DNA of 58,016 bases, counting the filler, from Sphacelaria rigidula (taxonomy: Eukaryota): assembly GCA_964200075.2 (NCBI GenBank). It is 6 parts of 6 records of this genome, joined end to end, with 100 filler letters (N's around TTAATTAATTAA, not from the genome) between each part and the next. Parts side by side here need not be neighbours in the genome. Positions count along the whole stretch, not along the records: positions 1 to 9,587 come from CAXNAA020008147.1; 5 more parts are not named here. One strand, 5' to 3'. Below are positions 1 through 48,431 of the stretch, in pieces (position 1 is the stretch's first letter; each line of letters opens with the position of its first letter). Both the position numbers and the translations under genes were made by a program. Below the pieces are notes generated by a model. It saw nothing but the letters and a program-made list of their open reading frames with translations, had not been told where the DNA came from and did no database searches.

Positions 1-1095
1 ACTGTTTTAGGCTTGAACCTCATCTCGGAGTTAAACCTCAATTCGCACAATTTGTTGTTTTTTGACGGGGTCCCTCCAGGGTCTGGGAAGATCTTGGGAG
101 GGTTGAGGCCAGGAAGACACGCCGTTCTCGACATAACACGGGTCGATCAAACCCAAATTTTGCACAGTGGCGGCCAAGCATATGATAAAGCACATGGCAT
201 CACCGTCCGGCCACTAACATCAAAGTTACCCTGAAGTACTGCGTTCGCGGTAGGGTTATGCGGGTTCGGGCTGCAGTCGAAAAAATGGGGACTGCCGCAC
301 AAAAACATCGACTCCGACACTCACCAAATGAATCAAGAAGATTCCACTTGCCCAGATGCTTCCACACGTAGTAGCAACGGCTCTCTCCACTCCATGCGGT
401 CTGCAGTCGGGTGGTGCTACGGCGATGGCTGGTGGAGTGCGGACTGGCTGCGAATGCGATGCTGCTCATACCTCGCACTTTTTGTCATGTTCTATTCTCC
501 CGATCCCGTGATGACTGCGTCATAGCCACTTTCTTGATTTTTCTTCTCATATAAATTTTTATGGGACATTCGGAACATAACCAAGTACACACGCTATGCT
601 CTTTTGTCATAACCTCTGAGGACACCAAAATTAAAGCCACTCCCCGCGTAAAAGGCACTTTTGATATATAAACAACGTGCCCCGTAGACCATGAAGATAC
701 AGGGAAACTTCAGAGTACAAATCGCGGAACCCCCTGAAAAATGAAAAACTCGCCGCACGCGTACGTCAGCGTGCCGCATTTGCTGTGACGAAAAGCAACG
801 GTATGAGACTAACGCACAGCAGTCATGTTTCTGTAGACTGATCAGAAGTCGACAAGAGTTCTGCAACAGCCACATAGATTCACGAAGGTAAAAAAACAAC
901 AACAAAATATCTTCGTTACAGCCTTCATTGTATATCTAGCGACATACCGTGGTTTTCCCGGGAAATTGTGTGCCATTCCTCTTGTCCCACTGATGCCCCC
1001 CTCCAAGACACTTGCTTTGACCCAGAGCACGCCTCCATTAACCCCGGGGATGGTAAGTTATGGTCCCATGAATCGTAGTGATACCTTCCCGGGAT

Positions 1096-1129
1096 GAGGA
1101 CACCTTTAAACAAGAAAATAAGTGTCCCC
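1096..1129 (-). terminator. Short hairpin immediately after the phytochrome stop codon; possible 3'-end signal
   Basis: On the minus strand TAA is followed directly by GGGGACAC-ttattttcttgtttaaag-GTGTCCTC, an 8-bp stem with one G:U pair and an AT-rich loop. Confidence 0.25.
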
Positions 1130-2917
1130 TTATGGCGGGGTCGACTGCATCCTCTTTATGCGCGTTTTCACCATACGGGTGCAACAATTAAGCAACTCTC
1201 CCTTCGCGAAAGGTTTCGAGAGGATGAAATCGGCTCCAGCATCCAACAGGTTATCCCTCGAGGAGTCCGTGAGGTCCGCGGTGAACCCCGTTATCGGAAC
1301 TTTCGGTAAACCATTCTCCGACTCGTAATTTCTGATGTTTCTTATGCACTCCACACCAGATGCGACGGGCATGTGATGATCCATAAGCATACCATCGATG
1401 GTATCGTTCGATTCGCTCATGGACTTCACCAGTTCGTACCCAAGGAGGCCGTTCTGTGCCGTCCTGATCACCGTGGAGTCTCCCATACATGTCCTTATCT
1501 GTTTCGTGACGAGTTTCAGGTTTATCTTGTTGTCGTCCACTATCATGAAGGTGGTCACATCGGGTACCGATTCCACTCCATCCTCCTGCGAGTTTCCCGA
1601 GCTGATTTTTGTCGACGATTCCACCAGACGGTCGGCACTTTTCATCGGTATAATAACCATGATATATGTCCCCTCCTTGACCGTGGAAGCCAGTGCCATT
1701 TGCCCCTTCATGGCCTTTACGTTCAGGAGGCATATGTGAAGACCCAGACCAGTTCCTTGATAGTTCTTCTTCACCCCGATCGAGACCTGTGTGTAAGGGT
1801 TGAAGAGAATCGTCAGATCCTTCCTCGAGATTCCGCACCCGGTGTCTTGAACAGATAGACACACCCATATACATCCACTTGTTTCCCTGTCCGAGATTCC
1901 CTCTTCTACCACGTGGGCGGCTTCGTAGGGACCAAAACATTCCTCTCGGTGTTTCAGCGCCGAACCTAGACCCTCGAAGGACCTGGATATCACCCTGACG
2001 GATCCTCCCCTCTCCGTGAATTTTATCGCATTCTGACATAGGTTGTCCATGATGTGTTTTATCTTGAGAGAATCTCCGTAGACCAACGGGGTCTCCCCCA
2101 GTCCATCGTCTTCTATGATTAACACGCCATTCTTCGAGCCGAACGACCGCATGCTCTCTATCGTGGAATCCAGGACCCGGCTAATCTTGATGACAGACAT
2201 ATCAACCGCGTTCTTGTGGTTTCCCTTGGCGATGTTGAGTATGCTGTCTAGCGTGCGCATCATCGTGTTTCCGCAGTCGAGAGCCGTCTTCGTGAAGCTC
2301 CTTCTCTCTTCAGGGTCCATGTTGATGTTGTCGTTCAGGATGTTGAGCGCGCTAATCACTCCGTGGAAAGGGGTTCTGAGTTCATGTGACATGTGAGCGA
2401 AGAGCTCGTAGTCCTCTCGGGCCCTCCTCATTATGCTGTTGTGCTCGGAGTTGTGACCCTCCCTAACCTGCATGAAGTCATCCAATATGTCGATCAAATC
2501 TCTGTCGAAGCTCGTCCAAGATCTAGGCCTCTCCTTCCCCTCTTGGATGTACTTTTCGAACGATTTCCTCGGACAGGGCAGACCGTCCTCCTCCACGGAG
2601 GGATGTAACTCGTCCGGGTTTCCTCCCCAGGAGACGTCGTTACAGTCCGGCGCACGCGTCAGAATTACCGCATTTTGTCCTATTTTAACACAGGCGTAGG
2701 ACCGCAACGGGTTCTCGACGACACCCAGGTGTACTCCAGGGACAGACCCTCCCTCGTCATCTTTTATCGCCCAATCCATATTACCCGCACTGTAGCACGT
2801 CCCCGCCTCCTCGTCCTTGACAGCTAACGATTCCGCGTCGAAGATGGACAGTATGTCCTGCAGGTTGTCCCTGAAAACATTGCTGAGGGGGTCCCTCTTA
2901 TTGTCGGTGCTCATCAA
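1130..2917 (-). CDS. Phytochrome C-terminal half: PHY domain, histidine kinase and receiver domain (first ATG at 2914)
   Basis: PHY tongue WGGNP...PRKSF...W. H-box SHELRTPFHG, N-box NLCQNAIKFT, G1 DTGCGI, F-box FNPYTQ, G2 GTGLGL. Receiver motifs VDDN, MDHHMP, TAD, KPF. Confidence 0.93.
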   Translation of the reverse strand: MMSTDNKRDPLSNVFRDNLQDILSIFDAESLAVKDEEAGTCYSAGNMDWAIKDDEGGSVPGVHLGVVENPLRSYACVKIGQNAVILTRAPDCNDVSWGGNPDELHPSVEEDGLPCPRKSFEKYIQEGKERPRSWTSFDRDLIDILDDFMQVREGHNSEHNSIMRRAREDYELFAHMSHELRTPFHGVISALNILNDNINMDPEERRSFTKTALDCGNTMMRTLDSILNIAKGNHKNAVDMSVIKISRVLDSTIESMRSFGSKNGVLIIEDDGLGETPLVYGDSLKIKHIMDNLCQNAIKFTERGGSVRVISRSFEGLGSALKHREECFGPYEAAHVVEEGISDRETSGCIWVCLSVQDTGCGISRKDLTILFNPYTQVSIGVKKNYQGTGLGLHICLLNVKAMKGQMALASTVKEGTYIMVIIPMKSADRLVESSTKISSGNSQEDGVESVPDVTTFMIVDDNKINLKLVTKQIRTCMGDSTVIRTAQNGLLGYELVKSMSESNDTIDGMLMDHHMPVASGVECIRNIRNYESENGLPKVPITGFTADLTDSSRDNLLDAGADFILSKPFAKGELLNCCTRMVKTRIKRMQSTPP

Positions 2918-2923
2918 CTCCTT

Positions 2924-3928
2924 TCACTTTTGCCCGCGTAGATGTCGGGTGTTTCGGTTGTGACGCATGATCTGCGACGCCGCCACCGATGCTAGTAGCT
3001 CGATCATGATGCGTCGTTCCGGGGAGGGCCACGTGGGCTTGCCGTATGAGTGGTAGGCCACGAGACCCCATAGGTTTCCGTCGACTACTATCGCATTGGA
3101 CATCGACGACACCACGCCCATCCCTTTAAGGTACAGATTGTGCGGACTGACGCACCCCCTCAGGAAACACTTTGTAAGGTCCACTCCTTGATCCCCGACG
3201 AGGATACACGGGTCTAGTTCGACGTTAGATATTAATCGGAAGTGGTTCGACAGGTAAGCCTCCCTGACATTCGCGGATATGTCCCTAGCTGGGAATCTCA
3301 GCCCTTTGTACCTGGACCGGATACTGGTCCGTACTTTCTCATGTATGACTTCTCCCGAGTTGTCTTCCAAGAACCTGTACACCATACCTCGGTCGTAGTC
3401 GGATTCCTCCAGGATGGAGTCGCAGAGTGTGGAAACTACCGTCTCGATGCTCTGACATGACGTGATCTTCTCCGCGATCTCTCCCGTTTTCAGTATGCTG
3501 GCATTGGTTTTGGACTGCATGTTTGCATCGACGGGTTCGAATTCTATCAACAACGTCCCGGACGGTGACGACGAAACGGTCATATGCACGTCGGTAACCA
3601 TGCCATCGCCGGAGTGAAGGAGACCTGCCATCCTCTGATATCTATATACGTAACCTTTGGTGCGGTTTGTGTTGGTGTCACTCGCCATCACCACGGAACG
3701 CATTGTGGATTCCATCGTTTCGACGACAGTGGGTTCGAAGAGGACGTGTAACGATTTCCCCAGAACCTCTCGGGTGGGCAATTGCTTGACCCAGGACCAT
3801 TTGTGCAGGTTGTTCGAAACAGAGACGATGCTGAAGTCGGACATTTTCACGGCCAGAACAAGACCGATGTCCTGTATGTACCCGATGCGTACCACGTCCT
3901 GTTCCTCGCATCTTTTAAGAGAAGCCAT
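2924..3928 (-). CDS. Phytochrome photosensory N-terminal half (PAS-GAF), 334 aa
   Basis: LKRCEEQDVVRIGYIQDIG resembles the BphP N-terminal motif LxxCxxEPIHIPGSIQPHG. GAF motifs: DRGMVYRF, SGEVIHE, GLRFPARDIS (FPASDIP), LRGCVSPHNLYLKGMGVVSSMS, LWGLVAYH. Confidence 0.92.
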   Translation of the reverse strand: MASLKRCEEQDVVRIGYIQDIGLVLAVKMSDFSIVSVSNNLHKWSWVKQLPTREVLGKSLHVLFEPTVVETMESTMRSVVMASDTNTNRTKGYVYRYQRMAGLLHSGDGMVTDVHMTVSSSPSGTLLIEFEPVDANMQSKTNASILKTGEIAEKITSCQSIETVVSTLCDSILEESDYDRGMVYRFLEDNSGEVIHEKVRTSIRSRYKGLRFPARDISANVREAYLSNHFRLISNVELDPCILVGDQGVDLTKCFLRGCVSPHNLYLKGMGVVSSMSNAIVVDGNLWGLVAYHSYGKPTWPSPERRIMIELLASVAASQIMRHNRNTRHLRGQK

Positions 3929-4611
3929 GATGCAAATACCGGATATATATATATGTATCTATTGGTACTCTCGTCCGCTGTTGAAGAGCTGAGAATCGCA
4001 GGATGCTGACAGGCGGGCGTCGGGCTGGAGACGAGAGTAGGCTCGCGACGCGTTAGGTGTCGACGCGTAGAAATGGCCAAGCACCGTCTTCGAGGGCGCG
4101 AGAAGTGCTTCCTTACCCTTGCGTACCCCAGTCAGCAGCAGGTAGTTTTTCGAGATGTCCCGCTCAGCTGGTGAGCAATAGGCAGAATTCCTGTGCTTGG
4201 ATACCTTGCGCCGCTGATGAAGCTACGCGCTTAGAAAGTCATGGGCTGAAATCCAGCTATCGCCCTTTCCTTCTTCCCCTTTCCGAAGAGTGCTGCGACT
4301 TGCTGCGCAAATGGGCACAGGGAAACGAATGTCGTCGATCAAAATCGAGATTGGTGGCTGTGTGAGCACATTCAGATCTGAGACACTCACCAAGCCCAAT
4401 TCCGTACTGCTCCGTCTAAGTGTAAGAATCTGTGACAGCTATTAAGGGTGAAAATCCGCAACTCGCTAGCAGTGCTGCATAGAGCGGCGGGATTCGCGTT
4501 TCGGAAAACTGTTCAACGAGTTTCACGATGTATGTGTTGGAGCAGGGGACATTTAAGTCGTGTACTGGGCATTTTTCAACCACGCATCAGTAGCAGATCC
4601 ATGACCGCTCC

Positions 4612-4800
4612 ATGAAAATGAACCCTGTATTTCTGGAGAGGGTTCTGCTGCTGATGGACCACGCGTGCGGGTATAAATTTGCCACTACGGGCATACGTGT
4701 GCTAAGTACGACACAGACGGAAGTGCACAAGTGCTGCTGGTGGCATGTGTCCAAGGCAAAATATTCCTTTGCTCGAAAATTAAGGCGTGACAATCGATCA
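4612..4800 (+). mobile_element. Possible degraded MULE-type transposase fragment
   Basis: LLLMDHACGYKFA...HKCCWWHVSKA resembles the second catalytic D followed by the CxxH motif of Mutator-like transposases. The fragment is short and isolated. Confidence 0.3.
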
Positions 4801-6844
4801 CATCAATCAACCGAGAAAAAACACTCGCTGTTGTACGTCGTAGCGCAAATCGGTGGCTGGTACAATCCCGATAAGTTGTGTGGGAGAGACTAGGCCCTAT
4901 TGAACAGACAAGCTCGTCACATTGCCGACGTATATTCGACGCTAGTATCTACACTTTCCCCGTCCCATGAGCTTGCGCAGTTGCGGTCATAGTGCACGAA
5001 CAATCTCGGGACCGTCGATGAATGGTTTTCGGAAATTCTGCATGTCTTTCGGGGCCGTCGATGAATGTTCTTTGGGAATTCTGTATGTCCTCGCGTTGTT
5101 AATATTTCGGAAGAGATGCATTTTTCTCGCTCCGGTTCATACTGCTTCTCCTCTTACTTTAGTCGTTGTCCGGGAAGGTCCAGGCCCATCTTCAGGACTT
5201 CCCACACCCCGATTGGAAGGTGCTGACAACAATCAAAGACACCGCTACCTGCTTGCACATATTGAAGATTGTGCTCTTTGGCACCGAGCAATAATGTCTC
5301 TGTATTTTTCTCCTCCATTGTATACTCTACGCCAAACGTTTCTGGACACAATAGATCCGAACGTACGGTGAGCGTCCACGCAAACGTGACTGCACATGCT
5401 TCGCGGAAAAGCAAGAATACTAAAACTACAACGAGTATAGAGTTGCAGGCTTGAGACGTCGGCCTCCCACATCAAACACGGTGAGTGTGGGGGGTAGCGG
5501 AGACGATGAAAAGGTCGCGATGTGTAGGATTCAAGATACTGCCATAGAAAAATAATAACGATAGTGTTCACCCAGGGGGGCGTCAAGTCCGGATCTGTGA
5601 CACCACCGTTCCCCACCAATTCGTTTTTGGTCATGGTTTGTTTTGAAAAAAGGCTGTTTCGTGTAACGTGTCGTCAATGTGAGCCACGTTGGTCGCGGAG
5701 TTCATCTAGAGGCAAACGTTAAGCATTTACAATCGGTGTATACGTGTGTCGATAACAGTACCACCGGGGGGTAATGGGGGCGAGGAAGCTCCTCGACCGT
5801 GTCTTTTTTGTGTCTTCCTCCCGCTATTCCTAATTGGTCGAGAAATCGGCATCAGGTTACCACCACACACACACCTCTTGCCAGCCCTTCCCTCGGCACA
5901 AAACCGCAGGCGGTCAGTTGTACAGTTCAATATACAATAATATATAGATATGCGGCTTGGCTTGCCGCATCTTGGCTGATGTGCTCGTGCCTTTTTTGTC
6001 GCGCTGACCAGTGCAACGATCGATTTCTTCCTGCCTCTCGTTTTGGACGGGACGTGCCTCTGTGCGCTATAGAACACGCCATCGGAAAACAGGGCGGTGT
6101 TCCCGTCACCGCTACCGTTCTCACGTACACACGTACGAGCAATGACAGTTGCGCGAAGATTCAATGGCGTGTGAGGGGTGCTATTGGAAGTATCGTGTAA
6201 GAGTTGCCGCAAGGACAGTGGTACAGGTTACGATTCCTAGGGCCGGAGCTCATAATAATAGGGTGGCGCGTGCACTACGCAAAGAGGACAGGGGGCTTAC
6301 GTGGGTCGGATCTCCACACTACCTTGCGCAAATCTTGCGGACGCTCAAGGTGCCTACCCCATATGTCTGCCGGGAGGCAGTCTAGCCGAGCCTCCGGGTA
6401 ATCGGCACATGAATCCGCTCGCGGGGTAATTGTTGGCTCAGATTTCTCCCTTCCTTCAAGGGAATAAATTGTGATGTGGTTATGGCAATGTCGCATGGAA
6501 CCCACGACCACAGAGACATTCTCGGCATGCTTAGTGAAATAAGATCCACGTAGCCGCGGCTCAGCTACTGGCGTGGCCCACATGGAGGCTGGCATATACT
6601 GTAAGCTGCCAGCTGCGTGACGCGTTTTTTTACGCATTCAATGCGCTTTATTGGCAGGGGTGGTGCCTTCCATTTTTCGATCGTCCTTTACTCTGCCGAG
6701 GCTACCACAAGCTTTTGCCTGACGCGGATATGATTCCACCACGAGCAAAGGGCGTTTCCGTGACATATGGATTACTTGCCGTTGCATTTGTGGCTCATGT
6801 CGTCGAGTGCTGACCAAACAAGTCTTGTCTGAGATACCGTAAGC

Positions 6845-8270
6845 TGGAGCTGAACCAGGGGATTCTTGTCATTGCTTTTGTAGTTGGCGATTGCAAGCAA
6901 GTTTTTGCGTGGCATCACTGATCCCAGTGGACGTTTGATTCCAAAAAAACGGGAGATACCTGGCATCCGCTCCATATTCCAAAGTAAAAACATCTCTGCG
7001 CTCAATATTGAACGACTTAGGGACTAACCGGTCTTCGGGAGTCCTGCGACTCCCCAGGCCCAGGTTCTGATACTTAAAACACTTTGCTCGATTAAAGCAA
7101 TCCCGATCGTTCTCGCGAAAAAATGGAAATACGTTTGTTTCAATTCTCCCTCCTCATTGCGCTAGAGCAAAAACACTGTGTTTTATTACCTTCGAAAAAA
7201 CTGTGTTTTTTTACCTTTGACGGTCGATAACACCCCCTGATGAACGAGTTCCTTACTCTCTTTCTGGCAGGGAGCCACACTAAACCCTCGTCCTGACTTT
7301 CGCAAGAACGGAAGCTCCCGCTGGGTTAATATACCACTTCTCCGAAATGGTGCTGCAGACGAGCGTTCATATCCGCCCAATGGACTACTGCTACGTACTC
7401 GTCGAGACTCCCGCGTCCAAATATTATACCGACTCCGTACCACCCTGATAACAGCAGCTTGAGGATTGTGCCGTGAGCACCACCTGTTTCTTTTCCCGAT
7501 TTTGTTCGACGCTAGGACTTTCGAGTGCTTAAGATGAACACTATACGGGAATATTCAGGAAAGTATCCAAATACGAAAATTGCCCAACCGAGCTCTGAAT
7601 AGCACAGGGGAGGTGAACCAACCCCAATCGATCTCGAGAATATTTTCGTCCGCCTCGTGTTGTTTTTACTCCATTCATCGCGCTAGAACGGAAAGGAATA
7701 TTTTTGAGGACCAACAACAGTCAGTGACACTCCCTGTCAATTTCTTAGTAGGGCATCTTCCTGAATGTTATCGTGTAGTATATCCTTAGCACTCGACGTC
7801 CTAGCGTCGAACGATACCGGGAGAGAAGTTGGTAGTGCTCACGACACAATCCTCAAGTTCGTGTCATCGGGGTGAGACGGAGTAAAAATCTCATTCCATC
7901 AGGAGATGTTATCGACCGTCACTGGTCCAAAAAACTTCGGCTCCAGCCCGATGAGAAGGGAAAATTTGAGAAAACTCAATTTCCATTTGTTCACGAGGAT
8001 GATCGGGTTTTCTCCAATCGAGCAAAAATACTCAGAAGTCAGGAGCCGGGGCAAGGGTGGTCGCAGGATCCCGAGGACCGGTCAGCTCGGAAGTCGTTCA
8101 GCATTGGAGAAGGAGATGAGGTTTGTTTCAGAATATGGAGCAGATGCGTAGTATCTCCCGATTACTAAAGTTTGGATCAAACATTCACTGGGATGAGCGA
8201 TGGCACGCGAAAACACTCTTGAAAATCGTCGACTACAAAATGATTACAAAAATCCCCACTCAGCTCGAAA
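6845..8270. mobile_element. About 1.4-kb foldback element with long diverged inverted arms (approx. 6845-7570 and 7750-8270)
   Basis: cttgaggattgtgccgtgagcac (~7458) pairs with gtgctcacgacacaatcctcaag (~7835). gttcgacgctaggac pairs with gtcctagcgtcgaac. atcccagtggacgtttgat pairs with atcaaacattcactgggat. A related arm occurs at ~48460-49235. Confidence 0.8.
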
Positions 8271-9587: not shown

Positions 9588-9687
9588 NNNNNNNNNNNNN
9601 NNNNNNNNNNNNNNNNNNNNNNNNNNNNNNNTTAATTAATTAANNNNNNNNNNNNNNNNNNNNNNNNNNNNNNNNNNNNNNNNNNNN
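9588..9687. other. Artificial contig-joining spacer
   Basis: N44-TTAATTAATTAA-N44, which places stops in all six frames. Confidence 0.98.
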
Positions 9688-12029
9688 CGTACAAACATAA
9701 CGATACAGACTTGTGGGACAGAGGAAGTATTGTTGCTTCAATGTCTCCGAGGATATTTCAACAGAACATATATTGGAAGGATAATATTTTCGCTGTCTCC
9801 ACTACAAAAAATTGGCATCATATTCGAACATATTGTGTTCGTTCAGGGTACGAGTAACAGCATCCGTGACCAGAGGGTGCCAAAAGGCGCGTATCGGCCC
9901 GCGTTTTCTGCCGTCGTATTGTCGAGCCAAAGATATCTCACATATTGTGAGGGGGATGGGCGACACCGCGCCGGTGGCCACATGGGTATCAGAAGGCAAT
10001 ATGTACCGGGTCGCCTCTTCTGTCACCATATTTTCCGGCCAATATATATATATATATATATACATATCAAACTCATTCGACAACTCTCCGTAGCCATGCC
10101 TGCGATTTTGTGCTGCTTCTTTTTGAGTCGTTTCCAATCTGCACGGGCTCCGACATCCATCGCGTCTGAATCCTTGTCATTGCGTACATAATACTCATAA
10201 TATCCAATTTATATATATATATATATTGACCGACCAATACATGTAGACATGTTAATCGGGGCCAAAATATACAGGAAAGTTTTGCAAGAAGTGTCCGGGA
10301 TCTTCCTGACGGAAAATCGCACAAGCCAATGAGATGGGACTGATACGCCCAGTCGATCGGCGAAGAAGCGAATGGGCCGCCCGGTCGGTTGGGAAAAGAA
10401 GCGCACAAGGTCATCTGCACCCATGACACGCACACGTTCCTGCTGCATTGCATCACCGGTACGGTCTGTTCATCATTCATTTTCATGTCAAAACTATTTT
10501 CATGTCAACACAGATGACCCGCCCTGGGGGTGCCCCTCTGTATAGGTTGAGACAAAGCCGATCGAAGAGGCATTGTGAAGTGCAGCAGTGGAATGCTTTA
10601 CATTACAGTGTATTGTTGTCTTCTCTCTCCCACCGGTTGCGTTCGTTCCGTTCGTCTATGGGTACCACCAAGGATCAGACTACACGAAACTCTCCGACAC
10701 CGTCATCCCTTCCTGCCTCTAGTTGCAAAAAAAGTCCTTGGGCTGCGGTGGGCATTCATTTTTGAAGTAAATAGTTCTCCCATGACAAACACAACTGACC
10801 CATCATGAGGTGGCTGCTCTCTGTGTAGATAGACAAAGCCGAAGTGCACCGTACAGCAAAGTACGATCAGTACAGCGCAGCGCAGTACAGTACAATGTTA
10901 TCTTCTCTGTACCTCCCGCCGCATTCCTCCCTTATTTTGTGGGTATCGTCGGGTATCAGATTACTCCTTTGGAGATCGTCACTCTTCCCGCCCGCTCTAA
11001 AAGTGACGCTTGATCGCCAGGATGATGTCTCGTGTTCATTTTTCAAGTCAAAATCTCTGGGAACGGTCGCCAATTTCCACAAATAACCGGCTCTGAAGTT
11101 GAACTCTCCGGCCCCGTTTAGGTCATTTGGGTTTAGCACTCATTTTTCAAGTGAAAATTATGCCGATAGGACATATGCCCGACCCTGGGTTGAGTGAAGG
11201 GTGAGAGACATGTGTCGTGTATTCCCAATGTACGCGCTCAAGTCGCAGCGGACGGCGGCAGTAGACGCGGTACGGCGAACATGGCGGTACCAATACAATC
11301 AACGCCACAGACGAAGAGAGCAGAACTCGGTGACCATGATGCTGTCTGCTCCAGTACACGCAATGTTTTTCACCTCGGGTTCCTTGTGTGGCTGTCTACA
11401 CATGTGGCGGGGCTTTCCTCAGCAGAAAATGTATGAGGGTATCATATTTGCACATGCGTACGCACCGAAGTAAAGTTACTCCTCGACCGATTCAGATCTG
11501 CCCCTCGACGTTTCCCCCCAAGCCCCTTCTGGCTGTGATTTTTTTCACTTGAATTTATTGGGGACGATGCGTTGCTCAGGACATACTCCATCGGTTGATA
11601 AGTTTAATTCGGGCGGTTCTTCATGCTCATGTGTGTGATTCGAGTGCCGATTGTTGCGTTGGGTGCTCCCAAGCTCAATGCATCACACTGCAGTGGCCAT
11701 TTCAGGGCACGTCCCGCGATCAGATCAGTAAGCTGGAAATTGTATATTTTTTTCAGGTTTAGAGGGTTCGCCTTCGAAGCGGTAGGACAAGGCCACTGCT
11801 ATCGGGTGCGTGTGGATGGTCAGCAACAGGATGTAGGGTGTGCACAAGGAGGGTATTGCTTGCGCCTGCGATCAACCCATCAAGAAATTGGATTGTAAAA
11901 GTAAGTTTATTTGAGCGAAGCATCCCAGGACAAAAAAAGAAAAGGGGAATTATTTTCTGTGGTCGTTGTGATTTCCTCGAACAGCCCAGTCACTTTTTTG
12001 TCCCCGATTAGCACGTCTAACACTGGCAC

Positions 12030-12300
12030 CCACGCTGCCCCAACATATTTTGACTGGTAAATATATTCTCACCAATGCAACCCTAATATATTGATCGTGC
12101 AATATCTCGTTGCCCACATTGCCCCAATGTATATTGATGGGACAATATGTGTGCAATTCCACGGTACCAGTATTGATTGGGTGGGCAATATGTATGTAGT
12201 CCCACGACACCAATACATATTGGGCGCGCAATTCGTGTGCAGTCCAAGCGTACCAATATATATTACGCCGGCAATACAACGCAATATTTCATTATGATCG
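12030..12300. repeat. Degenerate minisatellite, unit of roughly 40-45 bp
   Basis: The motif ccaat(a/g)tatattg....gcaata recurs about 5-6 times. Confidence 0.55.
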
Positions 12301-12369
12301 ACTAATATATACAAGTAATACATTTGACATTTTTCGCCGTTGAAGAGCCCTGGATGCAGGTGCACTTTT

Positions 12370-12560
12370 CACTTGATTTTAGAGTACGGCTAAACGGAGT
12401 CATTCCGTCGTTTCCAGGAGCTCTGAGAGGCCAGCATGTGCTCACACTTGATTTTAGAGTACGGCGAAACGGTGTCATTCGGTCGTTCTCAGAAACTTGG
12501 AAAGGCGAGCAGTTGCCCTCACTTGATTTTAGAGTACAGCGAAACGGGGTCATTTCGTTC
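12370..12560. repeat. 75-bp-period tandem repeat (about 2.5 units, plus a degenerate copy near 12722-12783)
   Basis: cacttgattttagagtacRgcKaaacggNgtcatt starts at 12370, 12445 and 12520. Confidence 0.85.
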
Positions 12561-13288
12561 TCTCAAGCTTTGACAAAGCAGCATTGCATGATTCCCCTTC
12601 AGGAGGTTTCGGGAGCATCGCTTCCACGGCAGTGCTCTGCATGGTGTTTTCCGCCTTCTTTCCTCGCCATGGCGGTAGACCCTCCGTACGTCCATGTCAC
12701 ACCCTACACAGGACTGCCAGAATCGTTCCCAGGGGCTCTGAGACAGGTGCACTTTTTCACTTGCTTTGAGAGAAACAGGGTCTCTTTGTGACACTTTGAC
12801 CGCCGGAGATGCCACCTCTTGCCGTATACAGGTCACTTGAAGATTGAATCATAATCATGCTCAGTAGTGATATCTCAAACTCGGCTCCTGGTATCCTGGT
12901 TTGTTTTGTTATATTTTTTCAAGTGAAGGTGATGCCGATTCATCAGATGATGTGACCCTTTGACCGCCAGGTCAGGTCCTCCTATGAAACGCGGTCACTT
13001 TCACTTTAAAAAATAGTACACAACTCAGAGCCAGCGAATAAACCAGGACACCAGCAGCCGAGTTTGAGATATACCTCTAGTTGGATAGGTTGTGCGGAAC
13101 GACTCTCCGTCCAATCTCGGCGCACACGGAAAGCGTGTTGTGATCTTACCCGCATGTCAAATCGTCTCGACTGCACTTCCCTTTTCCTGTCTCTGGACTG
13201 CTGTTGTTGTTGCTGCTGCTTCTGCTCTGCCATATATGCGTTTTTTCGTCATGAGGCGTCTTCTATTGTTCATATTTTAGTCCGCAGA

Positions 13289-14961: not shown

Positions 14962-16639
14962 TACCAAGACGCACTCGAGCACGCCTCTGGTACCTGAGCT
15001 GGACCAAAGAGCCAATCGCCACTGACTTGATGACACAAAACCGCGTACTCTCGATACCGCAGCCAAACGCAAGAATCAAGGATCGGCTTTGACAACTCCC
15101 AACCACCAGGCAGTGCAGTGAATACCCAACCACGGATCTAAGCGTTTGCAGTTGCAGCTGCCGTAGCTGAGTGTAGAGCGGAGCTTATCGTAGGTGGATG
15201 TACGGATGTATACAGCCCACAAAGCAGAGGTTATAACACGGGGGCTGTAGCAGCTCGGTGTATCTCGGATTGAAAAGATGAAAGTGCGAATATGTCTTCG
15301 TTCTTGCCGACTGGCTGCCGGGTCAGGTTAGGGCGAAGACATGGCCAGGATACCGTGGGGTCACGCTCGTATTCTCTCGACGTCTAGGCTACTAGGACCC
15401 AGGAGCCCTCTAGCTTCCAGACACTCCAGAAGACTTCAGGGACCATGAGGAACTTTCCACAACGCCCTAGAACATTCCCACAAATCTACGCAGAACTCAC
15501 ATTCCAAAACCATGCTCCCGACCAACTGTCATACACACCAAGCACGAAGAAAGGTCGCCTGGGCATCTGCGCTAGCGCAGAGTTTCGGGCTAAATCTGGT
15601 GCAGCGCAGGGCTTGCCGCACATGAAAAATTTAGGCCGCAAAATTTCACCGGAGGCGTAAAACAGTTTTGCGGAGGTGCTTCCGCCGGTAGGCGCTAACA
15701 AGTTGAAGGCTATGTTTTGCGATTTTTTTGCATATCTTGACGTGGAAATCTTGTACTTTTCGCCTCCGGCGGCCCCTTCGCGGGGGGCGGGCCTTCCGCG
15801 TGCGGCGCCCTCCGGGACCCCTCTCACCTCCGGCTCTCCTCGGCGCTAGCGCAGACGGAGTCCCTTCAACTTTTTCCCACCCTGCTGGTGTACACTGCTA
15901 TCGGCTACTTACGGGATACAGTTCTGTCACCTGTTGAGGGACTCGAGGAGCATCGTACGCTACACTTCTCAGTGTTACCAGCATCACATTTATAGATATA
16001 CTACGGGGCTGCGGTGAACGCGCAGCTTAACGGAGGAAATAACTTGACACAGTCCCGCCTGTACACATTCTAGTGGATTACTTCGCTGATCCCAATGACT
16101 CTGCACTACTATTTTACCTACTTTACTTTCAGCTACTGTTGCTGTTGCCGTCTTATCCGACAACAGTAGCAAATATAATCTGACTGCCTGCTGCTATGGT
16201 ACTTGATGGCATGTGACGCATTTCATATCCTGCGGACATGCTTACCTGCGCCATCGTGTTATCCGATAATGACACCATCCGGCTACTTGGTGTCCTGGCA
16301 CGCACTACAGCAGTATAATCTCCAACATCCGGGTCATGCCGTGCAATTCTGGGAACGTTTCTTGTTGCCATAGTACCGTGACCTATGATGGCTCTTGTTT
16401 GATGGCCAAGATTTTTGTGCTTCCGTGCAGATACCTTTGCTACTTGTATACACACTTGATCTCGCGAAGATGTTGGTAGTTGTAAAATTCACGTCTCGGA
16501 CGTCGTATACGCGGCTGAATTTTAAAGCTGCTTTCTATTGCGCCCTTGCGCGACCGCTGACGCACTTCGCGTTCTTGTTTTCTGTTCGTGCTCCCTCTGC
16601 TCTCTTGGCAGACTCGAAGGCACTTCTAGGCAGAACGGC

Positions 16640-17680
16640 ATGCTCTCGATCCGAAGAAGGCCTCAGGTGATCTTCTGGTTGTGCGCGCTCGTCTTCGTTT
16701 TGTTCGGCAGCGATGTGGCACCTCAGATTCGAGCGTTAGCAACTGGTGAAAAATCCAGCCCAGGCTTAGCCGGTGATGTCGCCGAAGATGGCCAGTGCTG
16801 GATATTCACGCACTTACAGAAGTGTGGCGGGAGTACGGTGAAGGCCATAATAGAGGGTCAGTGGGGTAAACGACAGATGATCTTTGACACCAATCAGTGG
16901 AAGTCAGGAGAAAAGGTCACCGCGAAGTTTGCGAAGAGCCTGGTTCAGGAACGCAAGTGGGACGCGGTCGCGGGAGGATACACGGAAGCCCTGAGACCCT
17001 ACGTCGGCGACCGCTGCAAGTGGTTCATCATGTTTCGACACCCGGTGTCGCGATTGGTTTCCGCATATTTTTACTGTCAAAGACTCCCGGCCGACACGGC
17101 TTGTGGGTCGGGACGTCTGAACGCGAAGGAAGCAGATTTGGTGACATTTGCGAAGCACTGGGGAAACTTCGGTCTGAGGCAATTCGCGCTGGCTTTGGTT
17201 GACCAGAACGATGTGCTCGAGTCCGACTGGCTCGGCTTGTCGGGGGGTGATCCACGGGATCGTCACGACTCGGGATGGTACATCATGAAGAGGTATCTAG
17301 AAACGGAAGGACGCAAGCTCGAGGGTACGGTTGGTGAAGAAGACGAATCACTGCCGGAGGATAGGGCTATGGACGATATGCTGCAGCCGGTCCGTGATTT
17401 GCTGCGAGACAATTTCACGGCCGTGGGCATCTTGGAAAGCTTTGATGACACGCTCGAGCTATTTAATCGTGCGCTGGAAGTGCCGGGTCTGGACTGGCGC
17501 AGCCAATTCAAAGCACAAGGTAGTAAGAATGTGGATAACCAATACAAGGAGCGAGAAAAGGCAGCGCTGGCCGAGGCTTGGACTAACGCAGAAATCAAGA
17601 AGTATATTAATCTCGACCTCCTCATATACGAGCATGCCGTGGCCGTGTTCAACCAGCAGAAGAGGCTATATTCAATTTAG
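16640..17680 (+). CDS. Type II membrane (Golgi-type) carbohydrate sulfotransferase, 346 aa, single coding exon
   Basis: ATG at 16640 gives MLSIRRRPQVIFWLCALVFVLF, a basic tail plus signal anchor. 5'-PSB motif FTHLQKCGGST, 3'-PB motif FRHPVSRLVSAYFY, C-terminal NLDLLIYEHA as in the Sulfotransfer_2/Gal-3-O-sulfotransferase families. Confidence 0.88.
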   Translation: MLSIRRRPQVIFWLCALVFVLFGSDVAPQIRALATGEKSSPGLAGDVAEDGQCWIFTHLQKCGGSTVKAIIEGQWGKRQMIFDTNQWKSGEKVTAKFAKSLVQERKWDAVAGGYTEALRPYVGDRCKWFIMFRHPVSRLVSAYFYCQRLPADTACGSGRLNAKEADLVTFAKHWGNFGLRQFALALVDQNDVLESDWLGLSGGDPRDRHDSGWYIMKRYLETEGRKLEGTVGEEDESLPEDRAMDDMLQPVRDLLRDNFTAVGILESFDDTLELFNRALEVPGLDWRSQFKAQGSKNVDNQYKEREKAALAEAWTNAEIKKYINLDLLIYEHAVAVFNQQKRLYSI

Positions 17681-19273: not shown

Positions 19274-19373
19274 NNNNNNNNNNNNNNNNNNNNNNNNNNN
19301 NNNNNNNNNNNNNNNNNTTAATTAATTAANNNNNNNNNNNNNNNNNNNNNNNNNNNNNNNNNNNNNNNNNNNN
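19274..19373. other. Artificial contig-joining spacer
   Basis: N44-TTAATTAATTAA-N44. Confidence 0.98.
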
Positions 19374-20867
19374 GATTTCAAAAACTTTTTGCTCAAACTG
19401 AACACTTATTTCTGAGCCTTTGGGGCGCCAGTGCTCAGCAAGACGTTCCCGGAATGGTATAGACGGAGGTTTTTGTTGTTTCCGATTCTCTGTTGAGCAA
19501 AACAGTGCCAGCAACGACTTCACAGTAACTTTTGTAGACGATGCGTAGACGAATCGCAAGTGTACGTGAAGTATGTATGCGTCGGCAAAAGTTGACAGTT
19601 GAAAAAAACAAACCCCGTTCTTGGGCCACGTACGGTAGGGGTGTGTGGTCGGCTCGTCCTCCTTAAAGGCACGTCTCTCCGCAGAAGGAAGAAGACCATC
19701 AAGATCACCGCGCGCGGTACTCTCAAACCTATACATGTAATGACCGCCATCGCGTACACATCTGTATACTCTCGACACTGGCTACTTTGTAGACTGTACA
19801 AGTTCGGTTACACATTGAAGTGTATTGGCCATACACAGACAAGGCATACTTGACCTATGTATGTACTCTTCTTGAGGAGGGTTTCCCTGGCTGGGTCGCT
19901 ACTACTTGATGTGTACTTGCCGGGTTCGCTTCCGTGCTGACCGCGTTTGTTTTGGTATGGAGGAGCACAACTATTTACGTGCTCAATATAAAGCCCTGAG
20001 TGTGCATGGTCTGAAACCCATACAAAACAGATATAGACTATATAGGGTGTAGAATAGGCATACTAAATAGTACATAGTGTAATATCAATATACGTTTTAG
20101 TGTGCCCAGTCTAAATGCCATACAATAGAACAAATTGCCCCCCCCCCTCCCCTCAATCAGCCCCAAATTAAAAAATGTGAAACGGGTATAGTATCTACTA
20201 CTGTGTCTATTGCAATAGACAATGGATTCCATACTGTAAGCAGTACAATTTCCTGACATTAAAATCTTCAGCCCAGGATGTGAAACGGCACACGGTATCA
20301 GCACATAACACACGTTTTCTTTCGTTTTGTTTCTCTTGGTTTTGGTTCCTCAGTTGTTGACTCACTCCTTTTGTTCCATCTCGACCGAGCGTTTCCATTT
20401 TGTTTTCATCTCGGGTACGTCCATATTCTTTATTTTATGGAGAATGACCACGACCAGGTCCCTCACGGATCACTTTGTGTACGACAACCAACCAACCGAA
20501 CACGCAAGTTGCTCTTCATATCCACACACTTGCATACGGCGCAGTCAAGCGGCAGTGGTACTTGTCATAAACTCAACAACATAAAAGTGCAGCATTCCCC
20601 CCCCCCCCCCCCCCCCCCCACCCCCCCCACTCGCCATCACCCGCACGCCCACGTCCCCCACNNNNNNNNNNCCACCACCTGGCTACGGGCCCGTCAAAGC
20701 GGGGGGGGTCCGTGCCTCAAATCCACCACAAAAAAACGCAGAAATCCCCCCCCCCCCCCCCCATGCGAGGCCAATGGCCTTACGACTACGGCAGGCATGA
20801 TTAACGGGTACACCCCACCCCCACCCCCACTCCCACCCCCAACGCATTTTCGGGGTTTTCATCACAC

Positions 20868-28959: not shown

Positions 28960-29059
28960 NNNNNNNNNNNNNNNNNNNNNNNNNNNNNNNNNNNNNNNNN
29001 NNNTTAATTAATTAANNNNNNNNNNNNNNNNNNNNNNNNNNNNNNNNNNNNNNNNNNNN
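28960..29059. other. Artificial contig-joining spacer
   Basis: N44-TTAATTAATTAA-N44. Confidence 0.98.
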
Positions 29060-38645: not shown

Positions 38646-38745
38646 NNNNNNNNNNNNNNNNNNNNNNNNNNNNNNNNNNNNNNNNNNNNTTAATTAATTA
38701 ANNNNNNNNNNNNNNNNNNNNNNNNNNNNNNNNNNNNNNNNNNNN
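38646..38745. other. Artificial contig-joining spacer
   Basis: N44-TTAATTAATTAA-N44. Confidence 0.98.
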
Positions 38746-48331: not shown

Positions 48332-48431
48332 NNNNNNNNNNNNNNNNNNNNNNNNNNNNNNNNNNNNNNNNNNNNTTAATTAATTAANNNNNNNNNNNNN
48401 NNNNNNNNNNNNNNNNNNNNNNNNNNNNNNN
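48332..48431. other. Artificial contig-joining spacer
   Basis: N44-TTAATTAATTAA-N44. Confidence 0.98.

What the first reader, a model, noticed from the sequence alone, without database searches (positions are those of the whole stretch)
1130..3928. Intronless, probably virus-derived phytochrome hybrid kinase embedded in host repeat DNA
Seen: a complete PAS-GAF-PHY-HisKA-HATPase-REC frame with no introns across 2.8 kb. U2SURP and the MBOAT gene in this window have exons of about 80-380 nt and introns of roughly 0.7-3 kb. The same contig carries the host SINE (9154) and a foldback element found on another contig, so it is unlikely to be a free viral or bacterial contaminant. Known: phaeoviruses such as EsV-1 integrate into brown algal genomes and encode hybrid histidine kinases, including a phytochrome-like one, and brown algal phytochromes have been reported to group with them. 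Inference: this is an orphaned viral light sensor retained with no recognisable viral neighbours, i.e. a candidate domesticated or recently decaying photoreceptor.
Basis: partly seen in the sequence, partly recalled or inferred. Interest (0 to 1): 0.8.

Follow-up and report, generated by a model that had tools for sequence, protein, structure and literature searches.

The report
Virus-clade phytochrome gene with premature stop
A brown alga carries an intron-free light-sensor (phytochrome) kinase gene of the type found in brown-algal giant viruses, sitting in ordinary repeat-rich algal DNA, and this copy is interrupted by one stop codon, so it is an ordinary example of an already proposed virus-to-alga gene flow caught as it starts to decay.

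Summary
The gene is real and lies at 1130-3928 on the minus strand, with the domain order PAS_2-GAF-PHY-HisKA-HATPase_c-REC. The frame is not complete. One in-frame TGA at 2924-2926 (codon 335) cuts it between GAF and PHY.

The best database match is an NCBI Sphacelaria rigidula protein whose gene model skips the stop with an 18-nt "intron". An 88%-identical paralogue has Leu at that position. Every other relative is 35% identical or less.

In a 39-row IQ-TREE tree the two Sphacelaria copies fall in a clade (98/99 support) with the phytochromes of three phaeovirus genomes and an EsV-1-like metagenome contig. AU tests reject grouping them with the Tribonema/Ishige/Pylaiella-2 clade (p=3.4e-5) or with diatoms (p=0.002).

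No viral hallmark domain was found in the 54 kb to the right. High-copy repeats flank the gene, and a brown-algal sulfotransferase-family gene lies 12.6 kb away.

This copy also changes the near-invariant DIP motif to DIS.

Verdict: a new member of a known kind, probably a recently inactivated duplicate. The direction of transfer is not proven.

The parts
1130..3928 (-). Whole monoexonic phytochrome hybrid histidine-kinase gene (932 codons including one internal TGA; terminal TAA at 1130-1132)
2927..3928 (-). ORF 1, codons 1-334: PAS_2 (3611-3910) and GAF (2972-3448), the chromophore-binding part
3908..3910 (-). Cys7, aligned with the N-terminal Cys of viral, brown-algal and diatom relatives (Cys in 49 of 72 other rows; 15 of the rest are gaps). 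Presumed biliverdin attachment site.
   Evidence: the role of the Cys is recalled from the bacteriophytochrome literature
3275..3283 (-). D216-I217-S218: the phytochrome 'DIP' motif reads DIS here. The position is Pro in 71 of 72 other rows, and the paralogue P0003 keeps DIP.
2924..2926 (-). In-frame TGA, codon 335, in the stretch between GAF and PHY. The paralogue has Leu, and the column is Leu in 33 of the 72 other rows and Met, Ile or Val in 9 each.
   Evidence: a contig of run X7 (2903-3266, 0 differences) contains it
2910..2927 (-). 18-nt GT..AG stretch that the public gene model (P0002) must have removed as an 'intron' to skip the stop. Judged an annotation artefact.
   Evidence: no joint skipping it appears in the joint table
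1130..2923 (-). ORF 2, codons 336-932 plus stop: PHY (Pfam hit 2477-2674; WGG 2621-2629; PRKSF 2558-2572), HisKA (2219-2407; H515 at 2384-2386), HATPase_c (1640-2077), REC (1187-1546; D850 at 1379-1381)
1..59 (.). Edge of a very high-copy dispersed repeat at the window start. More than 100 contigs per DNA run diverge at position 59.
   Evidence: tables 2 and 7
5601..6000 (.). Second high-copy repeat on the other side of the gene (summed depth about 3.5e3-5.7e3, against about 60-140 over the gene)
   Evidence: table 2
16526..17677 (+). Neighbouring single-ORF gene of a sulfotransferase-like family. Named brown-algal members are 35-53% identical; the best unnamed hit is 58%. It marks the contig as algal.

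Best explanation
This is a nuclear, intron-free phytochrome gene of the brown alga Sphacelaria rigidula. It belongs to the lineage of phytochrome hybrid histidine kinases shared by phaeoviruses and by virus-like genes in brown-algal assemblies.

An intact protein of this type would work as follows. It would bind a bilin at the N-terminal Cys inside the PAS-GAF-PHY module. Light would switch it between two states, which would control autophosphorylation at His515 and phosphotransfer to Asp850 of its own receiver domain.

The gene exists in at least two diverged copies that arose by a segmental duplication which included non-coding flank. The window copy has since acquired a nonsense codon after the GAF domain and a Pro-to-Ser change in the DIP motif. 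It is therefore most likely a young pseudogene, and the 88%-identical paralogue is the likely working copy.

Shown: the domain architecture, the stop codon, the DIS change, the existence of a paralogue, the placement in the virus-associated clade, and the non-viral, repeat-rich surroundings on one side.

Inferred: bilin binding and photochemistry, loss of function, viral origin and its direction, and the timing.
For: Architecture and motifs. All six Pfam domains score above their cut-offs. C7, WGG, PRKSF, the H-box His515, the N, G1 and G2 boxes, DD798-799, D850 and K905 are all present. The best solved relatives are bacteriophytochromes, at E 2.5e-33.

Stop codon. TGA is at 2924-2926. The public model P0002 (99% identical) lacks exactly the six codons around it. 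A contig of run X7, from a different study than X1, covers 2903-3266 without any difference.

Paralogue. P0003 is 794/903 identical and has Leu at the stop position and DIP in the motif.

Segmental duplication. DNA runs hold two versions of several pieces: 0 versus 23 differences in 249-304 nt of coding sequence, and 0 versus 23 in 255 nt of non-coding flank at 4494-4748.

Past constraint. At 7.6-10% nucleotide divergence, random mutation of this CDS gives 16-20% amino-acid differences and 5.5-7 new stops. Observed values are 12.1% and one stop. Divergence is 7-13% within domains and 29% in the HATPase-REC linker.

Clade.
- The 39-row LG+C20 PMSF tree gives these supports: Sphacelaria pair 100/100; 11-row clade with Ectocarpus sp. 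6, Ectocarpus sp. 12, Pylaiella-1 and L008a 98/97; 19-row clade that adds L001, FirrV-1-H1 and the L002 group 98/99 (names).
- L008 is an EsV-1-like contig. Its RNR is 94% and its RFC 93% identical to those of L002.
- AU rejects Sphacelaria plus the Tribonema/Ishige/Pylaiella-2 clade (dlnL 56.3, p 3.4e-5) and Sphacelaria plus diatoms (dlnL 61.8, p 0.002).

Context. No viral hallmark domain appeared among the 305 ORFs scanned. Repeats flank the gene. A brown-algal-family gene lies at 16526-17677.

Literature. Sphacelariales are among the orders with multiple integrated proviruses (bioRxiv 10.1101/2024.02.19.579948, passages read).
Against: - No close viral relative exists. The best viral match is 31% identical (L001) and the best of all non-Sphacelaria hits is 35%, so the donor is unsampled or the event is old.
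- AU does not reject the tree in which the other 17 virus-associated rows form a clade without Sphacelaria (p 0.195). In that tree the pair is their sister.
- Within the 11-row clade, Sphacelaria branching outside the Ectocarpales sequences is also what vertical descent would give.
- The tree is unrooted with respect to donor and recipient.
- The AU tests used LG+F+G4 with fast searches, because the built-in PMSF test did not finish.
- The stop rests on one assembly plus one short contig that has only 21 nt on one side of it, below the tool's 31-letter bridging rule.
- All catalytic motifs downstream of the stop are intact, and there are no frameshifts, as expected for a working gene with an erroneous or polymorphic base.
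- In the small sample of 18 changed codons (7 synonymous, 11 not), neutrality cannot be excluded (p about 0.2).
- The excess of deviations in this copy at otherwise conserved columns is only 3 against 1.
- The nucleotide divergence used for the neutral expectation comes from three contig pieces only.
- The left flank beyond 1.1 kb is not visible.
Confidence: 0.6

Rival explanations
1. The gene is intact and functional in the alga. On this reading the TGA is a base-calling or assembly error or a strain or allele polymorphism, and both copies are working photoreceptors.
For: There is a single stop, no frameshift, and every kinase and receiver motif is intact. Amino-acid divergence and the stop count are below the neutral expectation. 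Contigs of two small runs guessed to be RNA (X5, X7) match the gene body exactly. TGA is one base change away from the Leu codon TTA; the paralogue has Leu there, but its codon was not seen.
Against: The TGA is present in the window. It is also implied by the public gene model, although that model comes from the same assembly. It is present in an X7 contig from another study. The same copy also carries DIS where 71 of 72 relatives have DIP. Among the differences that the tool listed, none is at 2924-2926, but 294 rows were not shown.
Confidence: 0.15
2. The lineage is an old brown-algal paralogue inherited vertically since before Sphacelariales split from the crown orders. On this reading phaeoviruses captured it from their hosts, and the Sphacelaria genes were never viral.
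For: Sphacelaria branches outside the Ectocarpales members of the 11-row clade, as the species tree would predict. Path lengths in this clade (about 2.5 substitutions per column from Sphacelaria to Pylaiella-1) are similar to those in the other algal clade (about 2.2 from Ishige to Pylaiella-2; read from the newick). No viral genes lie next to the gene. Some clade members lie on large algal contigs: Ectocarpus sp. 6 on 1.8 Mb and Pylaiella on 619 kb.
Against: The clade also contains the phytochromes of three different viral genomes, and one on an EsV-1-like contig that is nearly identical to 'Ectocarpus' proteins. The gene has no intron in an intron-rich genome type, a feature the literature treats as a viral signature (PMC6324907, passages read). 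A separate clade with Tribonema and Ishige already fits the vertically inherited lineage.
Confidence: 0.25
3. The stop is real but the locus still makes useful products. These would be a 334-aa PAS-GAF bilin-binding fragment and, by re-initiation at Met339, a sensor-less PHY-kinase-receiver protein, or a full-length protein by TGA read-through.
For: The downstream 597 codons remain open and conserved. An ATG lies four codons after the stop. Contigs of the runs guessed to be RNA cover both halves.
Against: There is no evidence of translation. The PAS-GAF part carries the DIS change. Re-initiation after a 334-codon ORF is not expected in eukaryotes (general knowledge). The paralogue reads straight through with Leu.
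Confidence: 0.05
4. The gene is a contaminant, or a free viral or bacterial sequence mis-joined to algal DNA.
For: It is intron-free, and the solved relatives are bacterial.
Against: The best hits are stramenopile and phaeoviral, and bacterial phytochromes are only 21-27% identical. Contig depths over the gene (27-39 per piece) match the unique flanks (24-31) in run X1 (table 8). Contigs run from the gene into both flanks (873-1251, and 3990-4207 with 8 differences). A brown-algal-family gene lies on the same contig.
Confidence: 0.02

Closest known systems
Phaeovirus phytochrome-type hybrid histidine kinases: FirrV-1-H1 of Feldmannia irregularis virus a (P0203, named), the ORF at L001:9980-12742 (a complete 154,641-bp IMG/VR virus record) and the ORF at L002:9527-12328 (a 335,593-bp record). 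From memory, these two lengths equal those of FsV-158 and EsV-1.
   Same: Same six-domain order, similar length (920-933 aa against 932), N-terminal Cys, single ORF. They fall in the same 19-row clade with 98/99 support.
   Different: They are only 28-31% identical. They sit among viral genes: RFC and ribonucleotide reductase next to the L002 ORF. The window gene sits among repeats with no viral gene in 54 kb, and it carries a stop codon and DIS.
Virus-like phytochromes annotated in Ectocarpales assemblies (Pylaiella littoralis P0010, Ectocarpus sp. 12 P0011, E. fasciculatus P0129, Ectocarpus sp. 6 P0190) and the first phytochrome of the EsV-1-like metagenome contig L008
   Same: These are the nearest sub-clade, with 98/97 support for the 11-row clade. 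They are 33-35% identical.
   Different: The branch is long (0.83 substitutions per column to the Sphacelaria pair). Whether those genes lie inside inserted viral regions could not be checked here.
Brown-algal/xanthophyte phytochrome clade (Ishige okamurae phytochrome P0186, Tribonema minus P0200, Pylaiella littoralis P0158) and diatom phytochromes (Seminavis P0016, Mayamaea P0142)
   Same: Same architecture and the same wider stramenopile phytochrome group, sister to fungal phytochromes as described in PMC4525182 (passages read).
   Different: Grouping with either clade is rejected by the AU test, at p 3.4e-5 and p 0.002.
Bacteriophytochromes (BphP) with solved structures, for example 9eut and 8u4x
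   Same: PAS-GAF-PHY photosensory core with an N-terminal Cys, plus a HisKA/HATPase output. Best PDB E-value is 2.5e-33.
   Different: They have no fused receiver in most of the solved ones, and are about 21-27% identical in the database search. The window gene is not nested among bacterial sequences in the trees.

Membership tests
Phytochrome (bilin photoreceptor with PAS-GAF-PHY core) | PAS_2, GAF and PHY domains in this order | tested here: met
   Pfam hits above the curated cut-offs: PAS_2 35.1 bits (cut-off 21.4), GAF 42.2 (22.4), PHY 34 (27, partial coverage of the profile)
Phytochrome (bilin photoreceptor with PAS-GAF-PHY core) | Cysteine for covalent bilin attachment (N-terminal Cys in the biliverdin-binding type) | tested here: met
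   Cys7 aligns with the Cys of viral, algal and diatom relatives (Cys in 49 of 72 other rows, 15 gaps). Chromophore binding itself is not testable here.
Phytochrome (bilin photoreceptor with PAS-GAF-PHY core) | Conserved DIP motif in the GAF domain (motif name recalled) | tested here: not met
   The window copy reads DIS. The position is Pro in 71 of 72 other rows, and the paralogue P0003 has DIP.
Phytochrome (bilin photoreceptor with PAS-GAF-PHY core) | PHY 'tongue' motifs W(G/A)G and PRxSF (motif names recalled) | tested here: met
   WGG at 434-436 and PRKSF at 453-457. W434 is Trp in 72 of 72 other rows and F457 is Phe in 71 of 72.
Phytochrome (bilin photoreceptor with PAS-GAF-PHY core) | One uninterrupted reading frame joining sensor and output | tested here: not met
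   In-frame TGA at codon 335
Hybrid two-component histidine kinase | HisKA with phospho-accepting His, HATPase_c with N, G1 and G2 boxes, receiver with phospho-accepting Asp | tested here: met
   Pfam E-values 2e-11, 5.2e-18 and 8.8e-15. H515, NLCQNAIKF, DTGCGI, TGLGL, DD798-799, D850 and K905 are present. Activity is not testable here.
Phaeovirus-associated phytochrome lineage | Phylogenetic placement with phytochromes encoded in phaeovirus genomes | tested here: met
   19-row clade with 98/99 support. Alternative placements with the other algal clade or with diatoms are rejected.
Phaeovirus-associated phytochrome lineage | Location inside a viral genome or an inserted viral region | tested here: not met
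   No viral hallmark domain among the 305 ORFs scanned across the window. The left side is visible for only 1.1 kb. Table S19 of the Phaeoexplorer paper, which lists viral regions, could not be read.
Vertically inherited brown-algal/xanthophyte phytochromes (Ishige, Tribonema, Pylaiella-2 clade) | Phylogenetic placement in that clade | tested here: not met
   AU p 3.4e-5, dlnL 56.3
Bacterial BphP (contaminant reading) | Nested among bacterial sequences, with a bacterial gene neighbourhood | tested here: not met
   Bacterial rows lie outside the stramenopile/viral group. The neighbour at 16526-17677 belongs to a brown-algal family.

The most novel reading that the evidence does not exclude
Sphacelaria rigidula may have no phytochrome of the Tribonema/Ishige type and may rely on virus-clade copies alone. 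That would make a phaeovirus-derived photoreceptor the alga's working phytochrome (true domestication). The window copy would then be a transcribed, truncated PAS-GAF product with a role of its own, for example as a bilin-binding modulator.

The only hint is this: both word-based database searches returned just these two S. rigidula proteins, whereas they returned members of both clades for Pylaiella. That is weak evidence of absence.
Probability: 0.1. Interest if true: 0.6.

Novelty: new member of a known kind. Interest (0 to 1): 0.3.

Why it matters
The finding adds an early-diverging order (Sphacelariales) to the brown algae that carry intron-free phytochromes of the phaeovirus-associated lineage outside any recognisable viral region. 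It also shows one copy with the first signs of decay beside an intact duplicate.

This fits the published picture that inserted phaeoviruses have fed histidine-kinase genes into brown-algal genomes (PMC6324907; bioRxiv 10.1101/2024.02.19.579948; passages read). That preprint's text does not contain the word 'phytochrome' (0 occurrences). The finding does not change the picture.

It gives a concrete pair of genes (stop-bearing copy and paralogue) on which domestication versus decay could be measured.

It also flags an annotation artefact: an 18-nt 'intron' hides a stop codon in the public gene model.

Tried and rejected
- The whole-genome search was not possible because no genome is held for the window.
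- Expression. No listed holder is on record as RNA. The runs X5 and X7 are only guessed to be RNA. Their contigs match 844-3583 and 3896-4207.
- No joint that removes 2910-2927 was listed, but contigs cannot prove that splicing is absent.
- The built-in PMSF clade test did not finish in two calls. It was replaced by IQ-TREE AU tests under LG+F+G4 with fast searches. The 73-row quick IQ-TREE run did not finish either, and FastTree was used for that overview.
- Pfam scans did not confirm U2SURP or MBOAT. ORFs under 70 aa were not scanned, so short exons would be missed.
- The N-terminal 147 aa alone found no solved structure at E of 0.01 or lower.
- Fortunato et al. 2016 (PMC4826011) is not held. 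It is cited only through PMC13150293.
- dN/dS against the paralogue could not be computed because the paralogue's DNA could not be fetched. A rough substitute used 19 listed differences and a random-mutation expectation.
- The L002 record is not held for whole-record search.
- Earlier-findings look-ups by place and by sequence gave nothing.
- Structure prediction and complex prediction were not run. The domain assignment did not need them.
- Papers. Five full-text searches were run. None turned up a paper that describes Sphacelaria phytochromes. Supplementary Tables S19 and S20 of the Phaeoexplorer paper may list this gene and could not be read.
Full report
**Observation**

On the minus strand, an ATG at 3928 opens a frame that runs to a TAA at 1130-1132 (932 codons). 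There is no frameshift and no need for an intron. Pfam places the domains in this order, all above the curated cut-offs (window coordinates):
- PAS_2 (aa 7-106)
- GAF (161-319)
- PHY (partial profile coverage, aa 419-484)
- HisKA (508-570)
- HATPase_c (618-763)
- Response_reg (795-914)

Codon 335 is TGA (window 2924-2926), so the ORF listing reports two same-frame ORFs of 334 and 595 aa.

**Organism and copies**

The best database hit (99% identical) is an NCBI protein named 'unnamed protein product, partial [Sphacelaria rigidula]' (P0002). Its sequence lacks exactly the six codons around the stop. That corresponds to removing the 18 nt GTGAAAGGAGTTGATGAG (2910-2927) as an 'intron'. This is far too short for a spliceosomal intron (general knowledge), and I read it as a gene-prediction artefact.

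P0002's contig length (9587) equals the distance from the window start to the first N-run. The window's own neighbour protein P0330 shows 9586. P0002 therefore comes from the same assembly and is no independent witness of the stop.

A second S. rigidula protein, P0003, is 794/903 (88%) identical. It has Leu at the stop position and keeps DIP where the window copy reads DIS. In a 73-row alignment that position is Pro in 71 of the 72 other rows.

**Reads**

One call laid Logan contigs of four runs on window 1-6000.
- The two DNA-type runs (X1, X3, from different studies) cover the whole stretch.
- They hold two versions of several pieces: 0 versus 23 differences over 1546-1794 and 3238-3541, and also over the non-coding 4494-4748. 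The duplication therefore included flank.
- Most listed differences inside the gene reproduce P0003's residues (15 of 18 changed codons). Codons 292-293 differ from both copies, which hints at a third copy or allele, and codon 284 is a synonymous change seen partly in X1 only.
- A contig of X7, from a third study, spans 2903-3266 without any difference and so contains the TGA. Only 21 nt lie on one side, below the tool's bridging rule.
- X5 and X7 are only guessed to be RNA. Their contigs match the gene body of this copy exactly, and also the paralogue's version (17 differences over 2862-3031).
- Bins 1-200 and 5601-6000 have summed depths of about 6e5 and about 3.5e3-5.7e3, against about 60-140 over the gene. 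More than 100 contigs per run diverge at position 59. Dispersed high-copy repeats therefore flank the gene.

**Surroundings**

Pfam scans found no viral hallmark domain: no capsid, polymerase, packaging ATPase, primase-helicase or integrase.
- They covered 20 single ORFs and two sets of 150 and 135 stop-to-stop ORFs (repeated at E of 0.1 or lower).
- No RRM or Surp domain was found.
- There was one noise-level MBOAT hit (E 0.058).

The longest other ORF (16526-17677, 384 codons stop to stop) belongs to a sulfotransferase-like family. Its named members come from Laminaria, Ectocarpus, Ascophyllum, Pylaiella, Undaria and Sphacelaria at 35-53% identity, and the best unnamed hit is 58%. The contig is therefore algal on that side. 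To the left, only 1.1 kb is visible.

**Relatives**

Outside Sphacelaria nothing exceeds 35% identity.

IMG/VR holds two full-length viral relatives.
- L001 lies in a complete 154,641-bp record, at 31% identity.
- L002 lies in a 335,593-bp record, at 28% identity. It sits between a replication-factor-C gene and the large subunit of ribonucleotide reductase.

From memory, these lengths are those of FsV-158 and EsV-1.

The metagenome contig L008 carries RFC (93%) and RNR (94%) almost identical to L002's. It has two phytochromes, one on each side of RFC, a Rieske oxygenase and a further PAS-kinase-receiver gene.

Cluster look-ups supplied further names:
- FirrV-1-H1 of Feldmannia irregularis virus a (P0203)
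- Ectocarpus sp. 6 (P0190)
- Ishige okamurae phytochrome (P0186)
- Tribonema minus (P0200)
- E. fasciculatus (P0129)

**Phylogeny**

A FastTree overview of 73 rows and a careful IQ-TREE tree agree. The IQ-TREE tree used LG+C20+F+G4 by PMSF, 39 rows by 915 columns, with supports given as UFBoot/SH-aLRT.
- Sphacelaria pair: 100/100.
- Joined to the group of P0181, P0007, P0004, P0006, Pylaiella-1, Ectocarpus sp. 12 and L008a: 87/77.
- With P0184 and Ectocarpus sp. 6: 98/97.
- With the L001/FirrV-1-H1 pair and the L002 group: 98/99.
- A separate clade (100/99) holds Tribonema, Ishige, Pylaiella-2 and unnamed sequences. Diatoms form another clade.

The 39 rows were my choice from the 73. Bacterial and plant rows and long-branch rows were left out, and P0239/P0246 served as outgroup.

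AU tests under LG+F+G4 gave:
- Sphacelaria with the Tribonema/Ishige clade: rejected, dlnL 56.3, p 3.4e-5.
- Sphacelaria with diatoms: rejected, dlnL 61.8, p 0.002.
- The other 17 virus-associated rows forming a clade without Sphacelaria: not rejected, p 0.195. In that tree the pair is their sister.

The placement in the virus-associated group is solid. The position inside it is less so.

**Constraint**

The 109 amino-acid differences between the two copies are spread at 7-13% over the domains and 29% in the HATPase-REC linker. Random mutation of this CDS to 7.6-10% nucleotide divergence, the range seen in three contig pieces, gives 16-20% amino-acid differences and 5.5-7 new stops. The observed values are 12.1% and one stop.

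Of 18 changed codons that could be read, 7 are synonymous. That does not differ significantly from neutrality (p about 0.2).

Both copies therefore look to have been under selection for most of their separate history, and the stop looks recent. These figures are rough.

**Mechanism**

By homology with bacteriophytochromes (best PDB E-value 2.5e-33), and as known for the family, an intact protein would act in these steps:
1. It would attach a bilin at Cys7.
2. It would photoconvert.
3. It would modulate autophosphorylation at His515.
4. It would pass the phosphate to Asp850.

All motifs for these steps are present. In the window copy, translation should end after GAF, leaving a sensor fragment without output. 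That fragment also carries the DIS change. I therefore read this copy as a young pseudogene (about 0.6) and the paralogue as the likely working gene.

**Comparison with what is known**

- Kabbara et al. 2018 (PMC6324907, passages read) reported that Ectocarpus histidine kinases, phytochromes included, are intron-poor and similar to genes of inserted EsV-1-like viruses.
- Li et al. 2015 (PMC4525182, passages read) found that the EsV-1 phytochrome falls outside the brown-algal ones.
- The Phaeoexplorer preprint (10.1101/2024.02.19.579948, passages read) reports viral insertions in nearly all brown algae, Sphacelariales included, and virus-derived histidine kinases. Its text has no occurrence of 'phytochrome'.
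- A 2026 review (PMC13150293, passages read) states that phytochromes in macroalgal viruses suggest acquisition through infection.

The present gene is thus a new member of a known kind. What it adds is an early-diverging order, a non-viral context, a diverged duplicate pair and a visible first inactivating mutation.

**Verdict**

- Observation: partly confirmed, because a stop codon was overlooked.
- Interpretation: partly supported. The virus-associated lineage and the signs of decay hold. The direction and age of the transfer remain open, and the host-gene neighbours were not confirmed.
- Interest: 0.3.

Noticed in passing
window 9588-9687, 19274-19373, 28960-29059, 38646-38745, 48332-48431 (also 20662-20671): Pairs of 44-N runs separated by 12 bases recur every 9,686 bp. 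The protein database seems to have cut the sequence at these runs (contig lengths 9586 and 9587). They look like masking or scaffolding marks and not biology.
   Followed up: partly
L008:691-13544 (metagenome contig, 14 kb): An EsV-1-like contig (RNR 94% and RFC 93% identical to L002) carries two different phytochrome hybrid kinases, one on each side of RFC, plus a Rieske/VanA-type oxygenase and a further PAS-HisKA-HATPase-REC gene. The first phytochrome is nearly identical to proteins annotated as Ectocarpus fasciculatus.
   Followed up: partly
window 3049-3054 (codons 292-293): DNA-run contigs carry Y292F and H293Y, which match neither the window copy nor the paralogue P0003. This suggests a third copy or allele with a change at a near-invariant His.
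   Followed up: partly
window 16526-17677 (+): A single-ORF sulfotransferase-like gene. The Pfam Sulfotransfer_2 hit is just under the cut-off (21.5 against 22 bits), and the family has 87 hits at E of 1e-5 or lower, many from brown algae.
   Followed up: partly
window 7206-7933: Nested inverted repeats (arms 7206-7242/7897-7933, 7432-7496/7819-7883 and 7494-7518/7798-7822) form a foldback-like element about 3.3 kb from the gene.
   Followed up: no
window 5006-5089: Two tandem 41-nt units (85% alike) lie between the gene and the high-copy repeat at 5601-6000.
   Followed up: no
L013:282-12952 (metagenome contig, 37 kb): A phytochrome relative is split into two adjacent ORFs (9977-11200 and 11297-12952). 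It lies next to long single-ORF genes with eukaryote-type domains (RING-Metallophos-EF-hand, NHL-BTB, pseudouridine synthase). The origin of this contig is unclear.
   Followed up: no
window 2912-2923: Directly after the TGA comes AAGGAG, then TTG ATG. In a bacterium this would look like a ribosome-binding site for a coupled restart. Here it is most likely coincidence, since the paralogue reads L-E-E-V-M through it.
   Followed up: no
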